A DNA stretch of 64,000 nucleotides from a virus (lineage: Duplodnaviria; Caudoviricetes), in IMG/VR virus record IMGVR_UViG_2974597119_000001, positions 30,006-94,005 of that record. One strand, 5' to 3'. Below the pieces are notes generated by a model. The model was not told the DNA's origin and did no database searches. It saw only the letters and a list, made by a program, of their open reading frames with translations. Below, in pieces: positions 9,193-17,480 of this stretch (position 1 is its first letter; every line of letters begins with the position of its first letter). A program made the position numbers and the translations under genes.

Positions 9193-9530
9193 CAACAGCC
9201 GCCACGCCCGCCGCACAGGGTGAATCAAATTTGATTTATCATTCGCACATCAATGGAAATTCTGGAGCAACCGTGAACACGCCCGCCGCGCCGCAATCTA
9301 TGGCGCCGATCATCCTGGCGCACCCCGCGCCGCTACTGCTTGCCATCGCCAGCCGTTGCCGCAAGGGCCTGACAACCGTCGACGACGCCGAAGCGCTCGA
9401 GGAGCTGGCGAGGCAGGCGGAGAAACAGATTCAAGATCAGGCTGCATGACAAGGCAGAGCAAGGTTTAATGCGGGTATCCGCCCGCCGCCATTGCCGCCC
9501 GGGCGCGTATAGGGCGCAGAAAGGAAAGGT

Positions 9531-9752
9531 GTGAGCACCACGAAACCCACGATGCCGCCGCTCCCCGAGTGGGATGACGTGCGCGACAAGGTAGACGCAG
9601 AAGGCATGGAAGCTCTGACCGCCATCGAGCGCCTTGTCTACGAAAACGAGCCGTATGTCGGCGCCGCTGAATGGCGCGACTTCACGCAGGCCGCCCTGCA
9701 GGAAGCGTTCGACCTGGGCGTGATCGCGGGCCGCAAGGAAGCGCCGCTATGA
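9531..9752 (+). CDS. Hypothetical protein
   Basis: AGGAAAGG RBS; first of several overlapping ORFs. Confidence 0.6.
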   Translation: MSTTKPTMPPLPEWDDVRDKVDAEGMEALTAIERLVYENEPYVGAAEWRDFTQAALQEAFDLGVIAGRKEAPL

Positions 9753-10994: not shown

Positions 10995-12188
10995 GTGAAC
11001 CATGTCATCCACGAAGAAGGATCTCGCCCCGTAAAAATCTGGACCGATGAGGTCGAGGACAGCGCGCTCACCCAGCTCAAGAATCTGGCGCGCCTGCCGT
11101 TCATCCACGGCAACGGCGTCGCGGCCATGCCCGACGTTCACGCTGGCATCGGCGCCACGGTCGGCAGCGTCATCGCGACGGACAAAGCGATCATCCCGGC
11201 CGCCGTCGGCGTCGACATCGGTTGCGGCATGAACGCCGTGCGCCTGTCGCTCAAAGCGTCCGACCTGCCGGAAAGCCTGACCGCCATTCGCCACCAGATC
11301 GAGCGCGACGTGCCGCTGGGCGCCGGCGGCGCACACAAGCCCGACCGTATGCCGACCATGCCCGAGCATCTGTGGAACGGCCTGGGCCTGCTGACCGCGA
11401 AGCACGAGGCCCTGGAAAAGAACAGCGCCGGCCGCCAGCTCGGCACGCTCGGCTCCGGCAATCACTTCATCGAGCTCTGCCTGGACGAGAACCAGGACGT
11501 GTGGATCATGCTGCACTCCGGCTCGCGCGGCATCGGCAACCTGATCGGCCGCTACTTCATCGAGAAGGCCAAGCGCCGGATGGAGCAGTATTTCATCAGC
11601 CTGCCCGACGGCGATCTCGCCTACCTGCCCGAGGACACCGACGACTTCAACGATTACGTCGAGGCGGTGAACTGGGCCCAGGACTACGCGCTCGAGAACC
11701 GGCGCGTCATGATGGAGGCCGTCATCGCCGCGCTGCGCCGGCATGTGTCGTCGCACCTTTTCGACTTCACGATCACCCAGGAAGCGATCAACTGCCACCA
11801 CAACTACGTCGAGAAGGAGAACCATTTCGGCCGGAACCTGTGGGTCACGCGCAAGGGCGCCATCCGCGCGCGCGCCGGAGACTTGGGCATCATTCCTGGC
11901 TCGATGGGCCAGCGCAGCTACATCGTGCGCGGCAAGGGCAATGTCGAATCCTACTGCTCATGCTCGCACGGTGCCGGCCGGAAGATGAGCCGCGCCGCCG
12001 CGCGCCGGATGTTCACGGTCGACGACCTGAAAGCACAGACCGCCGGCGTCGAGTGCCGCAAGGACGACGCCGTGCTGGACGAGATCCCGGCCAGCTACAA
12101 GGACATCGACGCCGTGATGGAAAACCAGCGCGATCTCGTCGAGGTCGTGCATGTCCTGAAACAAGTTCTGTGCGTCAAGGGCGCGTAA
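10995..12188 (+). CDS. rtcB: RtcB RNA ligase
   Basis: MPDVHAG, VGVDIGCGM, GTLGSGNHFIE, HSGSRG, CHHNY, SCSHGAGR, DEIPASYK. Confidence 0.95.
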   Translation: MNHVIHEEGSRPVKIWTDEVEDSALTQLKNLARLPFIHGNGVAAMPDVHAGIGATVGSVIATDKAIIPAAVGVDIGCGMNAVRLSLKASDLPESLTAIRHQIERDVPLGAGGAHKPDRMPTMPEHLWNGLGLLTAKHEALEKNSAGRQLGTLGSGNHFIELCLDENQDVWIMLHSGSRGIGNLIGRYFIEKAKRRMEQYFISLPDGDLAYLPEDTDDFNDYVEAVNWAQDYALENRRVMMEAVIAALRRHVSSHLFDFTITQEAINCHHNYVEKENHFGRNLWVTRKGAIRARAGDLGIIPGSMGQRSYIVRGKGNVESYCSCSHGAGRKMSRAAARRMFTVDDLKAQTAGVECRKDDAVLDEIPASYKDIDAVMENQRDLVEVVHVLKQVLCVKGA

Positions 12189-12650: not shown

Positions 12651-12887
12651 ATGGGCACCTGGGTCGGGATCCGCTGCGAGAAGCTGGGCCCGGGCTGCTT
12701 GTCGGCCGAGAACATTGGCCCGTCCGGCATGTTCGCCGACGGCTCCTACAACGTGGCCGCCGGCGTCCGGAAACTCTACGCCGACGCACATAAGCAGGGA
12801 TGGCGCCGCGAGAGCGAAGTGCCGAGCGCCGGGCCGCGCGGCGGCTGGCTGTGCCCTGTGTGTTTGAAGAACAAGGAACAATCGTGA
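12651..12887 (+). CDS. Small Cys-containing (Zn-binding?) protein
   Basis: CEKLGPGC...WLCPVC. Confidence 0.55.
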   Translation: MGTWVGIRCEKLGPGCLSAENIGPSGMFADGSYNVAAGVRKLYADAHKQGWRRESEVPSAGPRGGWLCPVCLKNKEQS

Positions 12888-14362
12888 ATGACAAGAATTC
12901 TCAATTCGTGCTGTCGGATGACGAAATCGAACGGATTGGCACGCACCACGATGTGCAAGGGCCGCACTCCTTCGCCCGCGCCATCGAATCCGCCCTGCTG
13001 TCCAAGCTGCGCGCCCCTGTAGCCGATGAGCGGTGCAAGCGGTGCGGCGGCCCCGGCTGGTACACCAGCCACACCACCGGATACCCGGAGTCGATTCCGT
13101 GCAGCGCCTGCAACCCTCAAGGCGTTTCGGCGGAGCGGCTGGAAAAGGACCCATTCTTGGCTGCGCAGCTTTGGCGCAAACCTGTGGACTTCGCGGACGC
13201 CTACGAGGGCGCCCGGGAGGATCTGGCCATCTGGAAACGGCGCGCCCTGGAAGCCGAGCGCGACTTACGCGCAGAGCGGGAAACGTCGTCGCACCTGGTT
13301 GCCGAGTTGAATGCCGAGAACGGCCCGATGCGCATGGGCGGCCCTGCCGCCCTGGCAAGCGCCCCTGTAGCCGATGAGCGGGCGGCGCTGCAAAGGATCG
13401 TGGAGACCGCAGAAGACGGTGCAAACTCCGGCGACCGTCACGCCCGCTGCGTTGAAATAGCGCGTGCCACTCTGGCAAGTGCCCCTGTAGCCGGGGAGGC
13501 GCAGCCGGCCGCCTACCTGACGCTGGACGAGGAAGGTTCGCCCAGTATGCTGTTCTTCGATGTGGTCGAGGCGCGCACCTATTGCGAACTCGGGGACGAG
13601 CCGGAGCCGCTGTTTCGTCGCTCGGCTCTCGTAGCGGGTGATGCCAATCCCCAGGCCCCTGCGGGATGGCGTTGGACGCTGCACCCGGCAGGGCTGCATC
13701 CTGATGTGTACGCGGCAGCCGCGGCCCGGGACAGCGTCGAGGACGTGCGCAATGCGGCGCTGGAGGAAGCGGCGGGACACATCGAAAGCAAGAAGCCCGT
13801 CGGGACAATCGCCCTAGTCGTTCAGGCGTTCGCCGACGAAGTGCGCACCCTCAAGTACACCCCCGCGCCCACGGCGGCAGAGGGCAGCCAGGCCAGCGAG
13901 GCGGTGCGCGATGCTATCGAGACGTGCGCCAAGATTTGCGACGGCCGCAGTGCAAGCCTGATGCAGTCGCAGATGCTGACGGCCAGCAACGAAGCGCACA
14001 AGTGCGGTATGGCAATTCGATCTCGTGCCAAGGAATTGCTTTCGCTGTCCCTGTCCGCGCAACCGGGAGCTATTCGAAATCCTCTAATAGCTGAACCATC
14101 CGGAGAGTTGGGGCGCGCCGCCACTGAGGATGTGGTGCTGCCGCCGGTTCCGAGCGCTTACAACGACACCGGCAGCTATATCGGGTACGCCAAGTCCGAC
14201 CTGCAGGCTTACGCCCGCGCCGCCGTCCTGGCCGACCGCCAGCGGCGCTCCGGGGACGCCCCGCGCGAAGACGACATGCTGACCATCGCTTACCTCGCGG
14301 GAGCGCAAGCGGAGAAAGAACGCGCCGCCCTGGCCGCGCGAAAGGAGGGGGACGATGCGTAA
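12884..14362 (+). CDS. Mosaic hypothetical protein with repeated APVA(D/G)E linkers
   Basis: GTG start with AAGGAA RBS; GCCCCTGTAGCC occurs three times. Confidence 0.65.
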   Translation: MNDKNSQFVLSDDEIERIGTHHDVQGPHSFARAIESALLSKLRAPVADERCKRCGGPGWYTSHTTGYPESIPCSACNPQGVSAERLEKDPFLAAQLWRKPVDFADAYEGAREDLAIWKRRALEAERDLRAERETSSHLVAELNAENGPMRMGGPAALASAPVADERAALQRIVETAEDGANSGDRHARCVEIARATLASAPVAGEAQPAAYLTLDEEGSPSMLFFDVVEARTYCELGDEPEPLFRRSALVAGDANPQAPAGWRWTLHPAGLHPDVYAAAAARDSVEDVRNAALEEAAGHIESKKPVGTIALVVQAFADEVRTLKYTPAPTAAEGSQASEAVRDAIETCAKICDGRSASLMQSQMLTASNEAHKCGMAIRSRAKELLSLSLSAQPGAIRNPLIAEPSGELGRAATEDVVLPPVPSAYNDTGSYIGYAKSDLQAYARAAVLADRQRRSGDAPREDDMLTIAYLAGAQAEKERAALAARKEGDDA

Positions 14363-15112: not shown

Positions 15113-15188
15113 CGTGGTGTAGCGCAGTTGGGAGCGCGCCGGGCTCATAACCCGGAGGTCGCAGGTTCGAGTCCTGTCACCGCAACCA
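15113..15188 (+). tRNA. tRNA-Met(CAT), initiator-like
   Basis: Cloverleaf, CAT anticodon, C1:A72 mismatch, GGG/CCC anticodon stem, encoded CCA; TAGAAT -10 at 15101. Confidence 0.93.
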
Positions 15189-15195
15189 GATTCAT

Positions 15196-15208
15196 CGCTC
15201 TTTCAAAA
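15196..15208 (+). promoter_or_regulatory. boxA-like antitermination element
   Basis: CGCTCTTTCAAAA resembles rrn boxA TGCTCTTTAACA and sits at the start of the RNA cluster. Confidence 0.45.
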
Positions 15209-15263
15209 CTTGTCGCGAGCACGTCGACGCCATCGAAGATGGCCGAGGCGGAAGCTCATGAAT

Positions 15264-15339
15264 TGCCAAGTATCTCAGTTGGTAGAGAGGCGCACTGTTA
15301 ATGCGCATGTCGCTGGTTCGATCCCAGCCTTGGCAGCCA
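15264..15339 (+). tRNA. tRNA-Asn(GTT)
   Basis: TGCCAAG/CTTGGCA acceptor stem, GTT anticodon, G73, CCA. Confidence 0.95.
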
Positions 15340-15495
15340 GAATGTCTACCACCGACGCTCAGCTTGCTGAGCAGCTAGATGCCAGCCTAGGGTGGGAATG
15401 GCTGGACCCAAACCGGACGGGTATTGCGGGCGTGTGGTAACGCTCAAGAGACGGGGACTACGCCCGACTGGCCGCCGTAAGCGGCCATCGATTTC

Positions 15496-15573
15496 CGGTC
15501 CCTAGCTCAGTCCGATTAGAGCGTTCGCTTTGGGAGCGAAGGGTCGCAGGTTTGAATCCTGCGGGACCGACCA
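15496..15573 (+). tRNA. tRNA-Pro(TGG)
   Basis: CGGTCCC/GGGACCG acceptor stem, TGG anticodon, CCA; variant T-loop TTTGAAT. Confidence 0.92.
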
Positions 15574-15993
15574 GAATTGCAGCAGTGCCGAGCCCGCTCG
15601 ATGACGACTGAGTGCCCAACTGGCGGGAAACAAGTTCGTCCGATTGGCCCCCGTTAACAGGCCCGTGAGCTCCCTGGCAACAGGGACCACACGTAAGCAG
15701 GTTGGTCGGATAGCGGCGCAAGCCGTGATGCTTCCGAGGTGATGACCAGCCAGCCTGCTACCGTGTGGTGCTCAGCCCCAGTTGAACCTCTGAAACATGA
15801 GACCGGCCCCGGAAGGTGTAGCTTCGGCACGACCGCCCAAGGACTGGCAGATAGCAGACACTGAGCACCGCTCGCATACACCTGTGAGAGAAGTCCCCGC
15901 CGACGCCAGAAGCTGGCCGAGGGGCAGGCGCAGATCGGAGTCGTAAGCCGCCAAATCGAGTAGCACGTAACCTGGGCCGCGTAAGTGCCCAGG
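15574..15993 (+). ncRNA. Unassigned structured RNA, region A
   Basis: No credible ORF; nested stems ACCACACG/CGTGTGGT and GGTGCTCAG/CTGAGCACC; GCAA tetraloop hairpins. Confidence 0.5.
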
Positions 15994-16069
15994 ATCCTCA
16001 AGACGTGGTGCTGAACATCCTTGGTCGGGTTTCCGGGGTGGTTCCCGGACAGCACCACGCCTTGAGGAT

Positions 16070-16378
16070 GGTAGTGTGCGGGCCTCGGCCCGCGAGACGT
16101 GAAGTGAATGGCGTTCGGACGCGGGTTCAATTCCCGCCGGCTCCACCACTGGCAGCATTGGCGTCGAGCTCAGCATCCCCGGGGTCCGGATCACGGGTGA
16201 GTTCCAGTGCTGCCAGTCATGGGGCCGACCGGTTTCGACGGGCGCGCTGCAGCGGATCGGACTACTCGGCAAGCGGAGCCGTAAACCAAGCAAAATCGTA
16301 GACGCCAACGACGACTACATCCGCGCCGCTGCTTAAGCGGTGACGGCCTCCCCCGGCAGGTGGCAACAGAAGCCGGGG
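16070..16378 (+). ncRNA. ssrA: Circularly permuted two-piece tmRNA: acceptor piece ~16070-16148, intervening segment 16149-16220, coding piece 16221-~16378; tag ANDDYIRAAA
   Basis: T-arm plus CGGCTCCACCA precedes GGGGCCGACCGGTTTCGAC; G3:U70 pair; tag ORF 16304-16336. Confidence 0.92.
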
Positions 16379-16436
16379 ACCATCATCGAAGCGGCATTCG
16401 AGCCGGGGATAAGCCCGGCCCGCTTCGATGATGGTG

Positions 16437-17330
16437 TCCCGCAAGGGATGGGATTGACCCACACGCAAACGTCCTTCGAGGCGGTACCCGCTGGCGACGG
16501 TTAAAGCAGCCAGCTCATCACGTCCGCCCTGGCGACGAAAAGGCCAGGACCATTGGTCCGGGGTCGCCCCCCAGCATGCCGGCGGGTCGCCGAGGAAGAA
16601 CGACCGTCGATCCGGAAAACGAGGCACGGGTTCTCGGATGGCTCGCCGGCATGTGGACCGCCATGATGATGGCGCTCCTGGCGCAGTAGTGCGGAGGGAC
16701 TTGTCTATCCCCGAGCCGCGTCAGGGCGCCGCCATGATGGCGAATGCCCTGACTGACGGGCACGTCCTAAGTGGCGTGGGGATAGGCATCCACGCTGCCG
16801 GTTAGATTCCGGCCGCCGTCAACGAGGAAAGCCCCGGTACGCAAGCCGGCAAGCGGAGGCAGAGCCCGCTCCGCCTCAAGCGCAGGGTCAGCGCGCCGCG
16901 CGGCTGGAAGGCCGCAAGAGTCTTCCGGACCGATCCGTCGGTCTCGGCCGCAGGCCCGGGACCCCGGGAACGAAAGCGGATGCTGAGATACCGCCCGCAA
17001 GGCGGATCATTTCAGTGCAGCGAGTAGGAGGTCGGGAGAACCGTTCCGGCGGCAGTCATGCGCGCAGGAGCAAACGTCAGACCCAGCCAATCCATACGGT
17101 CGGTGGAAGTCCGAGCCGGAGACGTAACCGGCACCCTGACGCGCAGCAGGCAGGCTGCGCGGTCCTATCCCAAGGATCACCGGTAGGAAGGAAACGCCGG
17201 GCCGATGAGGGTCGCGAGCCTGAGCACAGGGGCCGACTGACGATAAATTGGGAAGCCATCGCGAGAGTGCGAGGCCCGCTTGCCGGGCCGCCTATCGATC
17301 CAAGTTGACGGTTTCGTTACTTGACTCTCA
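16437..17330 (+). ncRNA. Unassigned structured RNA, region B (one large RNA or several small ones)
   Basis: No credible ORF; many CGCAAG/GNRA hairpins, T-loop-like hairpins and a tRNA-like cloverleaf at 16754-16821. Confidence 0.5.
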
Positions 17331-17480
17331 CTTCAAAAAATCGAGTCCGATCAACGGGTTAAGTCCCTGTTTGAAACCTACTTGCGCGCTTCTGGCGCAC
17401 ATAATCCACATGCCCATTTGCTAAATCGTGCGCGGCCACAGATTGGTCACAGAGCAACAAACCAACAGTCCACACCCATC

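What the first reader, a model, noticed from the sequence alone, without database searches (positions are those of the whole stretch)
16070..16378. Phage-encoded, compact, circularly permuted two-piece tmRNA
Seen: the 3' tRNA-like half (T-arm, CGGCTCC-A-CCA, ending 16148) comes before the 5' half (GGGGCCG...GGTTTCGAC, from 16221). A 72-nt spacer closed by a 13-bp stem separates them. G3:U70 is present, inter-piece pairings are GGGCGC/GCGTTC and ACTACT/GGTAGT, and the tag is ANDDYIRAAA-stop. The pieces total only ~240 nt, with pk3/pk4 apparently absent. Known: permuted tmRNA occurs in Alphaproteobacteria, some cyanobacteria and a few Betaproteobacteria. Inference: this may be an independent permutation or a phage-borne vehicle for one. 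No smpB is in the window.
Basis: partly seen in the sequence, partly recalled or inferred. Interest (0 to 1): 0.85.

Follow-up and report, generated by a model that had tools for sequence, protein, structure and literature searches.

The report
Phage-borne two-piece tmRNA gene
A 94-kb phage carries a real, circularly permuted (two-piece) tmRNA gene of the betaproteobacterial type; near-copies sit in unrelated phages, including cultured Achromobacter phages where it is unannotated, but phage two-piece tmRNAs are already a known kind.

Summary
ARAGORN calls a permuted tmRNA (tag ANDDYIRAAA). Rfam tmRNA_permuted scores 104.5 bits against a cut-off of 47. The helices are supported by compensatory changes in relatives.

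The record is a complete 94-kb virus. The gene lies between phage genes, and no smpB is present.

An independent permutation is not supported. The RNA is a divergent member of the betaproteobacterial-type permuted family: beta_tmRNA aligns full-length at 61 bits, below its cut-off of 84. Ten IMG/VR viral copies pass that cut-off and bridge the gap. The gene shares the family's post-tag loop motif, which standard tmRNAs of the same order lack. A tree separates all permuted forms from standard ones (99/97), but an AU test cannot exclude a separate origin.

The same cassette is 92% identical, spacer included, in a lambdoid phage contig. It is 87% identical in N4-like Achromobacter phages Axy11 and JWDelta, where flanks are unrelated.

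Phage two-piece tmRNAs were reported in 2022. Verdict: a new member of a known kind, of moderate interest.

The parts
15994..16070 (+). Long imperfect hairpin directly upstream of the acceptor piece. It may be a processing site or the end of the tRNA transcription unit. It is specific to this phage.
   Evidence: Fold of 15985-16100: -65.3 kcal/mol, z -4.75. Homology with the Axy11 copy starts at about 16068 and with L189 at 16095, so this hairpin is not part of the shared cassette.
16068..16148 (+). Acceptor piece (3' tRNA-like half). It holds the P2b 3' strand GGTAGT (16070-75), an inserted hairpin (16078-93), the P2a 3' strand (16111-17), the T-arm (16121-37), the acceptor 3' strand (16138-44), A 16145 and the encoded CCA (16146-48). 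The 5' end is inferred, not mapped.
   Evidence: The hairpin stem covaries among relatives: GCGGGC/GCCCGC, GAGC/GCTC, GCAG/CTGC.
16149..16220 (+). Intervening sequence of 72 nt, removed on maturation. A 13-bp closing stem (16149-61 with 16204-16) extends the acceptor stem. The tail TCAT puts U at -1 before the inferred RNase P site.
   Evidence: The L189 copy keeps the stem through a compensatory A-U to G-C change. Closing stems of 6-13 bp occur in the 18 related permuted genes with spacers over 20 nt.
16221..16385 (+). Coding piece. It holds the acceptor 5' strand GGGGCCG (G3:U70), the D-loop analogue ACCGGTTTCGA, the P2a 5' strand (16239-45), the P2b 5' strand ACTACT (16261-66), the PK1-position hairpin (16267-81), the resume codon GCC (16304), the tag ANDDYIRAAA (16304-33), the stop in the loop of helix 5 (16321-46), and a hairpin with a GGCAACAGAAG loop (16351-78). 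The 3' end is inferred from where homology stops.
   Evidence: 86.6% identity to Axy11 and JWDelta, and 92.3% to L189.
16379..16435 (+). Terminal 16-bp-stem hairpin after the conserved cassette. It may be a 3' end, terminator or processing structure. It has no T-run and is specific to this phage.
   Evidence: fold. No canonical terminator found. It lies outside the region shared with other phages.
15113..15573 (+). tRNA-Met(CAT), tRNA-Asn(GTT) and tRNA-Pro(TGG) on the same strand, 0.5 kb upstream. They are probably in the same cargo region and possibly the same transcript.
   Evidence: Permuted tmRNAs next to tRNA arrays are also seen in L196, L214 and L247.
10995..12188 (+). RtcB RNA ligase on the same strand, 4 kb upstream. 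This is context only. The linkage to tmRNA is not conserved.
   Evidence: Pfam RtcB 433.6 bits. None of 80 related RtcB loci in IMG/VR has a tmRNA within 8 kb.

Best explanation
This is a functional phage-carried ssrA gene of the circularly permuted, betaproteobacterial type.

Inferred pathway, by analogy with the Caulobacter two-piece tmRNA:
1. One precursor is made, perhaps together with the upstream tRNAs.
2. Host RNase P cuts before G16221. The 3' end of the acceptor piece is trimmed to the encoded CCA at 16148, and the 72-nt spacer is discarded.
3. The two pieces stay together through the 7-bp acceptor stem and the helices P2a (7 bp) and P2b (6 bp).
4. Host AlaRS charges the RNA through G3:U70.
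5. Host SmpB and EF-Tu deliver it to ribosomes stalled on broken mRNAs. The phage encodes no SmpB.
6. Translation resumes at GCC 16304 and adds ANDDYIRAAA. The terminal Ala-Ala should still direct host ClpXP-type proteolysis.

The likely benefit is to keep ribosomes free in infected cells, where mRNA is being cleaved.

Shown here: the gene, its conserved architecture, covariation of the helices, conservation of the tag frame, its phage location, and its transfer between phages. Inferred: processing, charging, tagging and the benefit.
For: Detection: ARAGORN and Rfam both call it.

Identity elements: G3:U70 and the T-arm are intact in all 23 related permuted genes tabulated.

Covariation:
- The inter-piece helix P2a forms standard pairs in 95% of cells across 20 distinct sequences. 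With shuffled partners the figure is 60% (maximum 74% in 1000 shuffles). All 7 positions show compensatory double changes.
- P2b covaries: ACTACT/GGTAGT, ACGATC/GATCGT, ACAACC/GGTTGT, GCAACA/TGTTGT.
- Within the four-member subclade, compensatory changes occur in the spacer stem, the acceptor-piece hairpin, helix 5 (GCCGC/GCGGT against GTTGC/GCAAT) and the post-tag hairpin (CCCCGG/CCGGGG against CCCCAG/CTGGGG). Meanwhile the tag frame is kept, with synonymous Arg and Ala codon changes and only residue 8 varying among A, V and L.

Phage location:
- The record is a 94-kb virus rated 100% complete by CheckV.
- The portal and RtcB genes lie on one side. A methylase and a tail-collar protein lie on the other.
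- Homologues occur in the virion genomes of lytic Achromobacter phages.

Structure: the folds are well beyond shuffled controls.

Processing: U at -1 before the 5' GGGG occurs in most relatives. This fits RNase P preference, which is my own knowledge.
Against: - There is no expression, processing, aminoacylation or tagging data.
- The beta_tmRNA score (61 bits) is below Rfam's cut-off (84).
- No sigma-70-like promoter or canonical terminator was found nearby.
- The tag ends RAAA, not the ALAA seen in 27 standard and permuted tmRNAs of the host-like order. The strength of the degron is therefore uncertain.
- The host is unknown, so compatibility with its SmpB and AlaRS is assumed.
- Close relatives of this phage's RtcB region lack the gene, so it is dispensable cargo.
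Confidence: 0.8

Rival explanations
1. This is an independent (fourth) permutation event. The phage subclade (window, L189, Axy11, JWDelta) arose from a standard one-piece tmRNA of a Burkholderiales-like host, separately from the bacterial beta two-piece lineage.
For: - The AU test does not reject a tree that places the subclade beside standard tmRNAs (delta lnL 2.8, p 0.40).
- The tRNA-like parts are as similar to standard tmRNAs of the order as to bacterial permuted ones. For example, S_L139 matches 40 of 45 and 23 of 26 positions.
- The beta_tmRNA score is below the cut-off.
- The subclade has its own P2b sequence and an extra hairpin in the acceptor piece.
Against: - The full-length alignment to RF01850 (positions 1-331, E 1.7e-17) is the best in its clan.
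- Viral copies form a graded series up to 187 bits. L264 (97.6 bits) shares an exact 27-nt stretch with the window.
- Element order is the same, and so is the 22-nt spacing between the PK1-position hairpin and the resume codon.
- The post-tag loop motif GGCAACAGAA / CTTGTTACC is present in bacterial and viral permuted genes and absent from 11 standard tmRNAs of the order.
- The best tree separates all 34 permuted sequences from the 11 standard ones with 99/97 support.
Confidence: 0.12
2. The RNA is a tag-swap or interference device rather than a simple helper. It competes with the host's own tmRNA for SmpB and stalled ribosomes. Products then receive a phage-specific tag (YIRxAA in place of YALAA) with a different fate, or host trans-translation is dampened.
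For: - The tag core differs consistently from the ANDE[TRN][YF]ALAA of the host-like order and is conserved across three phage backbones.
- The phage brings no SmpB, so it must share the host's.
- A phage tRNA-like-domain-only tmRNA (DS6A) is reported to inhibit tmRNA (PMC4131195).
- Tags in other viral copies are very diverse.
Against: - The C-terminal Ala-Ala and the N-terminal AND are kept, as in ordinary degradation tags.
- A pure decoy would not need a conserved reading frame or helix 5.
- No phage adaptor or protease partner has been identified.
Confidence: 0.12
3. The gene is a non-functional passenger: either host DNA at a prophage border, or an attP remnant of a tmRNA 3' end.
For: - Many IMG/VR hits to the T-arm/acceptor motif are fragments at contig ends, typical of integration at ssrA (68 of 98 matches in 97 loci).
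- The phage has a tyrosine integrase.
Against: - The gene is complete, with both pieces and the tag.
- It lies mid-genome, between phage genes and 40 kb from the integrase.
- It is conserved with compensatory changes in unrelated phages, including lytic ones.
- No close copy was found in 401 sampled bacterial genomes of the order.
Confidence: 0.03

Closest known systems
Betaproteobacterial two-piece tmRNA (Rfam RF01850 beta_tmRNA; described by Sharkady and Williams 2004, which I cite from memory because the paper was not readable here)
   Same: - Gene order is acceptor piece, spacer, coding piece.
- P2a and P2b pair the two pieces.
- A small hairpin sits at the PK1 position, with 22 nt to the resume codon.
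- The 10-residue tag starts with AND.
- The stop codon lies in helix 5.
- One post-tag hairpin carries the GGCAACAGAA/CUUGUUACC-type loop.
- There is no PK3 or PK4.

   Different: - The score is 61 bits against a cut-off of 84.
- The spacer is 72 nt, against about 25-30.
- There is an extra hairpin in the acceptor piece.
- P2b is ACUACU/GGUAGU.
- The acceptor stem is GGGGCCG, not GGGGGUG.
- CCA is encoded here, while most of the 15 bacterial copies parsed end in ACC before the spacer.
- The tag is YIRAAA instead of F/Y-A-L/I-AA.
- It is carried by phages, not on a chromosome.
Two-piece tmRNAs of marine phages (OM43 phage Melnitz, pelagimyophages; Buchholz et al. 2022, PMC9004378)
   Same: - They are phage-encoded permuted ssrA genes without smpB.
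- They were found by ARAGORN.
- They are thought to have been acquired horizontally.
- Their function is unknown.
   Different: - Those are of alphaproteobacterial type and sit next to a glutamine riboswitch in T4-like marine myophages.
- This one is of beta type, GC-rich and has no riboswitch hit.
- It is shared with N4-like and lambdoid phages of non-marine hosts.
One-piece tmRNAs of mycobacteriophages (Bxz1 group), Bacillus phage G, and the tRNA-like-domain-only form of DS6A (Hudson et al. 2014, PMC4131195)
   Same: A phage carries tmRNA but no SmpB and depends on host partners.
   Different: Those are standard or truncated gene forms in phages of Gram-positive hosts. This one is permuted.
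Caulobacter crescentus two-piece tmRNA (Keiler, Shapiro and Williams 2000, cited within PMC9004378)
   Same: It is the model for the mechanism. A single precursor is cut by tRNA-processing enzymes into two base-paired RNAs that are alanylated and tag proteins.
   Different: It belongs to a different (alpha) permutation lineage, has a longer tag, and is a chromosomal, essential-pathway gene.

Membership tests
tmRNA (any form) | tRNA-Ala-like domain: 7-bp acceptor stem with G3:U70, discriminator A, CCA end, T-arm | tested here: met
   GGGGCCG/CGGCTCC with G3:U70, A 16145, CCA 16146-48, T-arm GCGGG-TTCAATT-CCCGC.
tmRNA (any form) | Short tag reading frame that starts at an Ala resume codon and ends in a stop, with a C-terminal Ala-Ala | tested here: met
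   GCC at 16304 through TAA at 16334-36 gives ANDDYIRAAA. The frame is kept in L189, Axy11 and JWDelta.
tmRNA (any form) | Alanylation, SmpB binding and trans-translation activity | not testable with these tools
   This needs experiments. There is no SmpB gene in the phage.
Permuted tmRNA (Rfam RF04321) | Score at or above the gathering cut-off, with the acceptor piece upstream of the coding piece | tested here: met
   104.5 bits against 47, model positions 1-213. ARAGORN marks the gene as permuted.
Permuted tmRNA (Rfam RF04321) | The two pieces are held together by inter-piece helices | tested here: met
   P2a is 95% paired against 60% when shuffled, and all 7 positions covary. P2b covaries.
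Betaproteobacterial type (Rfam RF01850) | Score at or above the gathering cut-off of 84 bits | tested here: not met
   60.8-61.2 bits, E about 1e-17, over the full model length. Bacterial members score 160-331 bits, and ten viral copies score 90-187.
Betaproteobacterial type (Rfam RF01850) | Family-specific architecture: small PK1-position hairpin, 22-nt spacer to the resume codon, post-tag hairpin with a conserved loop | tested here: met
   Alignment. The loop motif is shared with bacterial L132 and with viral copies, and is absent from 11 standard tmRNAs.
Betaproteobacterial type (Rfam RF01850) | Common descent with the bacterial beta lineage, meaning the same permutation event | tested here: inconclusive
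   The tree split of permuted against standard has 99/97 support. The AU test does not reject the alternative (p 0.40).
Alpha- or cyanobacterial permuted tmRNA (RF01849, RF01851) | Best-scoring clan member | tested here: not met
   Within clan CL00001, beta_tmRNA was the match kept. The 4-5 lower-scoring overlapping clan matches were dropped, and their identities and scores were not shown.

The most novel reading that the evidence does not exclude
The ANDDYIRxAA two-piece tmRNA may be a self-contained cassette that moves between unrelated phages: an N4-like lytic type, a lambdoid type and this 94-kb type. It would act as a counter-measure to host RNA-cleaving defences, or as a tag-swap against the host's one-piece tmRNA. 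More broadly, phage-borne copies like these could be the vehicle that seeded the patchy permuted ssrA genes in Betaproteobacteria. One metagenome-assembled genome (G001) holds both a standard and a divergent permuted copy.
Probability: 0.15. Interest if true: 0.7.

Novelty: new member of a known kind. Interest (0 to 1): 0.4.

Why it matters
No function has been shown for any phage tmRNA in the papers I could search. This cassette is useful for three reasons:
- It is conserved with clear purifying selection in three unrelated phage types.
- It occurs in cultured lytic Achromobacter phages (JWDelta, Axy11), so deletion, RNA mapping and tag detection are directly feasible.
- Its tag differs from those of host-like bacteria, which makes phage-driven tagging distinguishable by mass spectrometry.

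It also shows that beta-type permuted tmRNAs are common in viral contigs. That bears on how permuted ssrA genes spread. For annotation, the gene is missed or mislabelled in the GenBank records of those phages. It is a modest advance, not a new class of element.

Tried and rejected
- The motif GGGGCCGACCGGTTTCGA, tried as a clade marker, is shared by many standard tmRNAs (Steroidobacteraceae and others).
- Minimum-energy cofolding of the two pieces gave inconsistent P2 pairings, so comparative analysis was used instead.
- An unguided longest-stem search for P2b barely beat shuffled partners (7.5 against 6.9). P2b was read manually.
- G001's permuted copy is not in a prophage. It lies among chromosomal genes (LysR, SMC, DapD), so it gives no evidence of phage delivery.
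- RtcB and tmRNA are not a conserved module: 0 of 80 related RtcB loci have a tmRNA.
- Relatives by portal and primase (Aeromonas ST4, Pseudomonas Dolphis, Jeremy and Touem01, and others) gave no tmRNA hit by blastn. They were not searched with a covariance model.
- BLAST of the coding piece against 401 genomes of the order found nothing.
- The supplements of PMC9004378 list no Achromobacter phage or this tag.
- PMC516066 could not be read.
- The host could not be named. Its GC content (65.5%) and its DNA hits suggest a Burkholderiales-like host only weakly.

Full report
**1. The observation**

ARAGORN reports a permuted tmRNA at 16056-16427 on the + strand with tag ANDDYIRAAA. Rfam's tmRNA_permuted model (RF04321) matches 16095-16336 at 104.5 bits, against a gathering score of 47.

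The layout is as follows:
- Acceptor piece: T-arm GCGGG-TTCAATT-CCCGC, acceptor 3' strand CGGCTCC, discriminator A, and an encoded CCA ending at 16148.
- Spacer: 72 nt (16149-16220). Its ends pair over 13 bp.
- Coding piece: starts at 16221 with GGGGCCG, which gives G3:U70.

A fold of 16118-16240 gives exactly T-arm, acceptor stem and spacer stem (-63.7 kcal/mol, z -4.1).

After the tag come three structures: helix 5 with the stop codon in its loop, a 7-bp hairpin with a GGCAACAGAAG loop (16351-16378), and a long terminal hairpin (16379-16435). This part folds with z -6.1.

**2. It is in a phage**

The window is bases 30006-94005 of a 94,005-bp IMG/VR virus record that CheckV rates as complete. 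The genes found are:
- a portal, a DarB-like methyltransferase, a primase, a helicase and a tyrosine integrase;
- RtcB 4 kb upstream of the tmRNA;
- an AraC-type regulator, a DNA methylase and a tail-collar protein downstream.

Portal and primase relate the phage to phages of about 90-95 kb, such as Aeromonas ST4 and Pseudomonas Dolphis, Jeremy and Touem01. The whole record has three tRNAs (Met, Asn, Pro), all just upstream of the tmRNA. It has no SmpB.

**3. Relatives, and selection on structure**

The coding piece is 86.6% identical over about 165 nt to unannotated DNA in the N4-like Achromobacter phages vB_AxyP_19-32_Axy11 and JWDelta. Rfam scores those copies at 97.6 and 95.8 bits. Their tags are ANDDYIRVAA and ANDDYIRLAA.

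An IMG/VR contig of 44.7 kb (L189) carries a copy that is 92.3% identical over 287 nt, including the 72-nt spacer. Nothing else in that contig matches the phage. It is a lambdoid temperate phage with CI, CII, DnaB and Erf. The same cassette is therefore in three unrelated backbones.

Within these four copies, compensatory changes keep the spacer stem, the acceptor-piece hairpin, P2a, helix 5 and the post-tag hairpin. The tag frame is kept, with synonymous changes, and only residue 8 varies.

Across 20 distinct permuted genes, both viral and bacterial:
- the inter-piece helix P2a is 95% paired, against 60% with shuffled partners (maximum 74% in 1000 shuffles);
- all seven P2a positions show double changes;
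- P2b covaries as well.

In all 23 permuted genes tabulated, G3:U70 and the T-arm are intact. This is the signature of a working RNA, not a relic.

**4. Which family, and was the permutation independent?**

Among the tRNA-clan families, beta_tmRNA (RF01850) is the best match. It aligns over its full length (positions 1-331, window 16048-16385) at E 1.7e-17. The score, however, is only 60.8-61.2 bits, below the cut-off of 84.

Two IMG/VR scans gave the wider picture:
- A scan with the T-arm/acceptor motif gave 97 loci: 15 with the permuted arrangement (spacers of 4-111 nt), 15 with the standard arrangement, and the rest fragments.
- A second scan, with a coding-piece motif, added two more viral permuted copies (L264, L265).

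Ten viral copies pass the beta_tmRNA cut-off (90-187 bits). Bacterial chromosomal copies score 160-331 bits. The window's subclade sits at the divergent end of a continuum. L264 (97.6 bits) shares an exact 27-nt stretch with it.

Shared derived features are:
- the small hairpin at the PK1 position;
- the 22-nt spacing to the resume codon;
- the post-tag loop motif, GGCAACAGAA or CTTGTTACC. It is present in bacterial and viral permuted genes but absent from 11 standard tmRNAs of the same order.

A maximum-likelihood tree of the alignable parts separates 11 standard tmRNAs from all 34 permuted ones with 99/97 support. Relationships inside the permuted group are unresolved. An AU test does not reject a tree that places the subclade beside the standard forms (p 0.40).

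I therefore rate a shared origin with the beta lineage as likely, at about 0.8, but not proven. Compactness and the lack of PK3/PK4 are normal for this family.

**5. Bacterial copies**

In a sample of 151 genomes of the order reached through locus L065, only four had strong permuted hits. Three of these lacked a standard tmRNA. One, G001, a 7.1-Mb metagenome-assembled genome, had both. Its divergent permuted copy lies among housekeeping genes.

No close copy of the window's coding piece was found in 401 sampled genomes. The refuter 'near-identity to a host chromosomal ssrA' was thus not met in what could be searched.

The tallies and the tag list include one unpublished genome (G029, locus L134).

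**6. Context**

None of 80 IMG/VR loci with a related RtcB (60-85% identity) has a tmRNA nearby. A 92.9-kb relative (L276) shares RtcB and the gene at about 22.7-24 kb of the window, but lacks the tRNAs and the tmRNA. So 12.2-22.7 kb of the window is variable cargo, and the tmRNA is an acquired accessory gene. Its GC content (65%) matches that of the phage, whereas the Achromobacter-phage copies are 52-54% GC.

**7. Mechanism**

The inferred steps are:
1. The precursor is processed by host tRNA enzymes. U at -1 before the 5' G occurs in most relatives.
2. The pieces are held together by the acceptor stem, P2a and P2b.
3. The RNA is alanylated through G3:U70.
4. Host SmpB delivers it to stalled ribosomes.
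5. ANDDYIRAAA is added.

Tags of 27 tmRNAs in the host-like order are ANDE/D-x-Y/F-A-L-AA. The phage tag keeps the AND start and the terminal AA but changes the core. The products are probably still degraded. A changed fate, or competition with the host tmRNA, is the main functional rival.

**8. Novelty**

Phage tmRNAs have been known since the mycobacteriophage cases (PMC4131195). Buchholz et al. counted 53 two-piece forms among 133 unique phage tmRNAs, mostly marine and of alpha type (PMC9004378). The 2025 tmRNA database lists 79 phage sequences (PMC11915505).

I found no paper that mentions a tmRNA in the Achromobacter N4-like phages, and none that tests any phage tmRNA functionally. The verdict is a new member of a known kind. 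Its value is practical, because the cassette sits in cultured phages.

Noticed in passing
window 16437-17380: About 0.9 kb downstream of the tmRNA has no convincing ORF. Other first-stage notes flag it as a possible large structured RNA. A permissive Rfam scan gave only a weak tRNA-Sec-like match at 16736-16820 (21.7 bits, E 0.3). It lies outside the cassette shared with other phages.
   Followed up: partly
L001 6251-6484 (Axy11_034) and L002 6167-6297: In GenBank, the Axy11 tmRNA coding piece is overlapped by a minus-strand 'hypothetical protein' CDS. The region just after the JWDelta tmRNA is annotated as a 'terminator'. Neither record annotates the tmRNA. ARAGORN misses the Axy11 copy and mis-reads the JWDelta tag, because their spacers are long (113 and 207 nt).
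   Followed up: partly
L214, L257, L264, L265, L266: These viral permuted tmRNAs have a spacer of only 4 nt (ATGG). The CCA end abuts the 5' G of the coding piece, which is an extreme case for processing.
   Followed up: no
L268 about 9437-9547: This is a permuted tmRNA in a metagenome contig. Its 111-nt spacer has a closing stem and an internal T-arm-like hairpin (GCAGGTTCGAAACCTGC). It may be a tRNA-like insert. ARAGORN calls nothing in this locus.
   Followed up: no
L039 (G002), L065 (G001), L264: These divergent permuted tmRNAs have tags that do not end in Ala-Ala: ANDTHFLKFGT (my reading of L039), ANADIYLKWA and ANDSSYLKVA. G001 also has a standard tmRNA (193.7 bits) on another contig, so it has either two ssrA genes or is a mixed bin.
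   Followed up: partly
L260 4519-4665: A viral contig with a permuted tmRNA also carries adjacent suppressor-type tRNAs with anticodons CTA and TTA. This hints at stop-codon reassignment in that phage.
   Followed up: no
L369 (G373:C1:4092054-4092335): A bacterial genome with a 331-bit beta_tmRNA has a second, weak (45.6-bit) beta_tmRNA-like match 9 kb away. It may be a fragment left by an island integrated at ssrA.
   Followed up: no
window 10995-12188 and 12800-14362: RtcB RNA ligase (433 bits) lies on the same strand as the tRNAs and the tmRNA. The 520-codon ORF between them has no Pfam or PHROG match and may not be real in this GC-rich DNA.
   Followed up: partly
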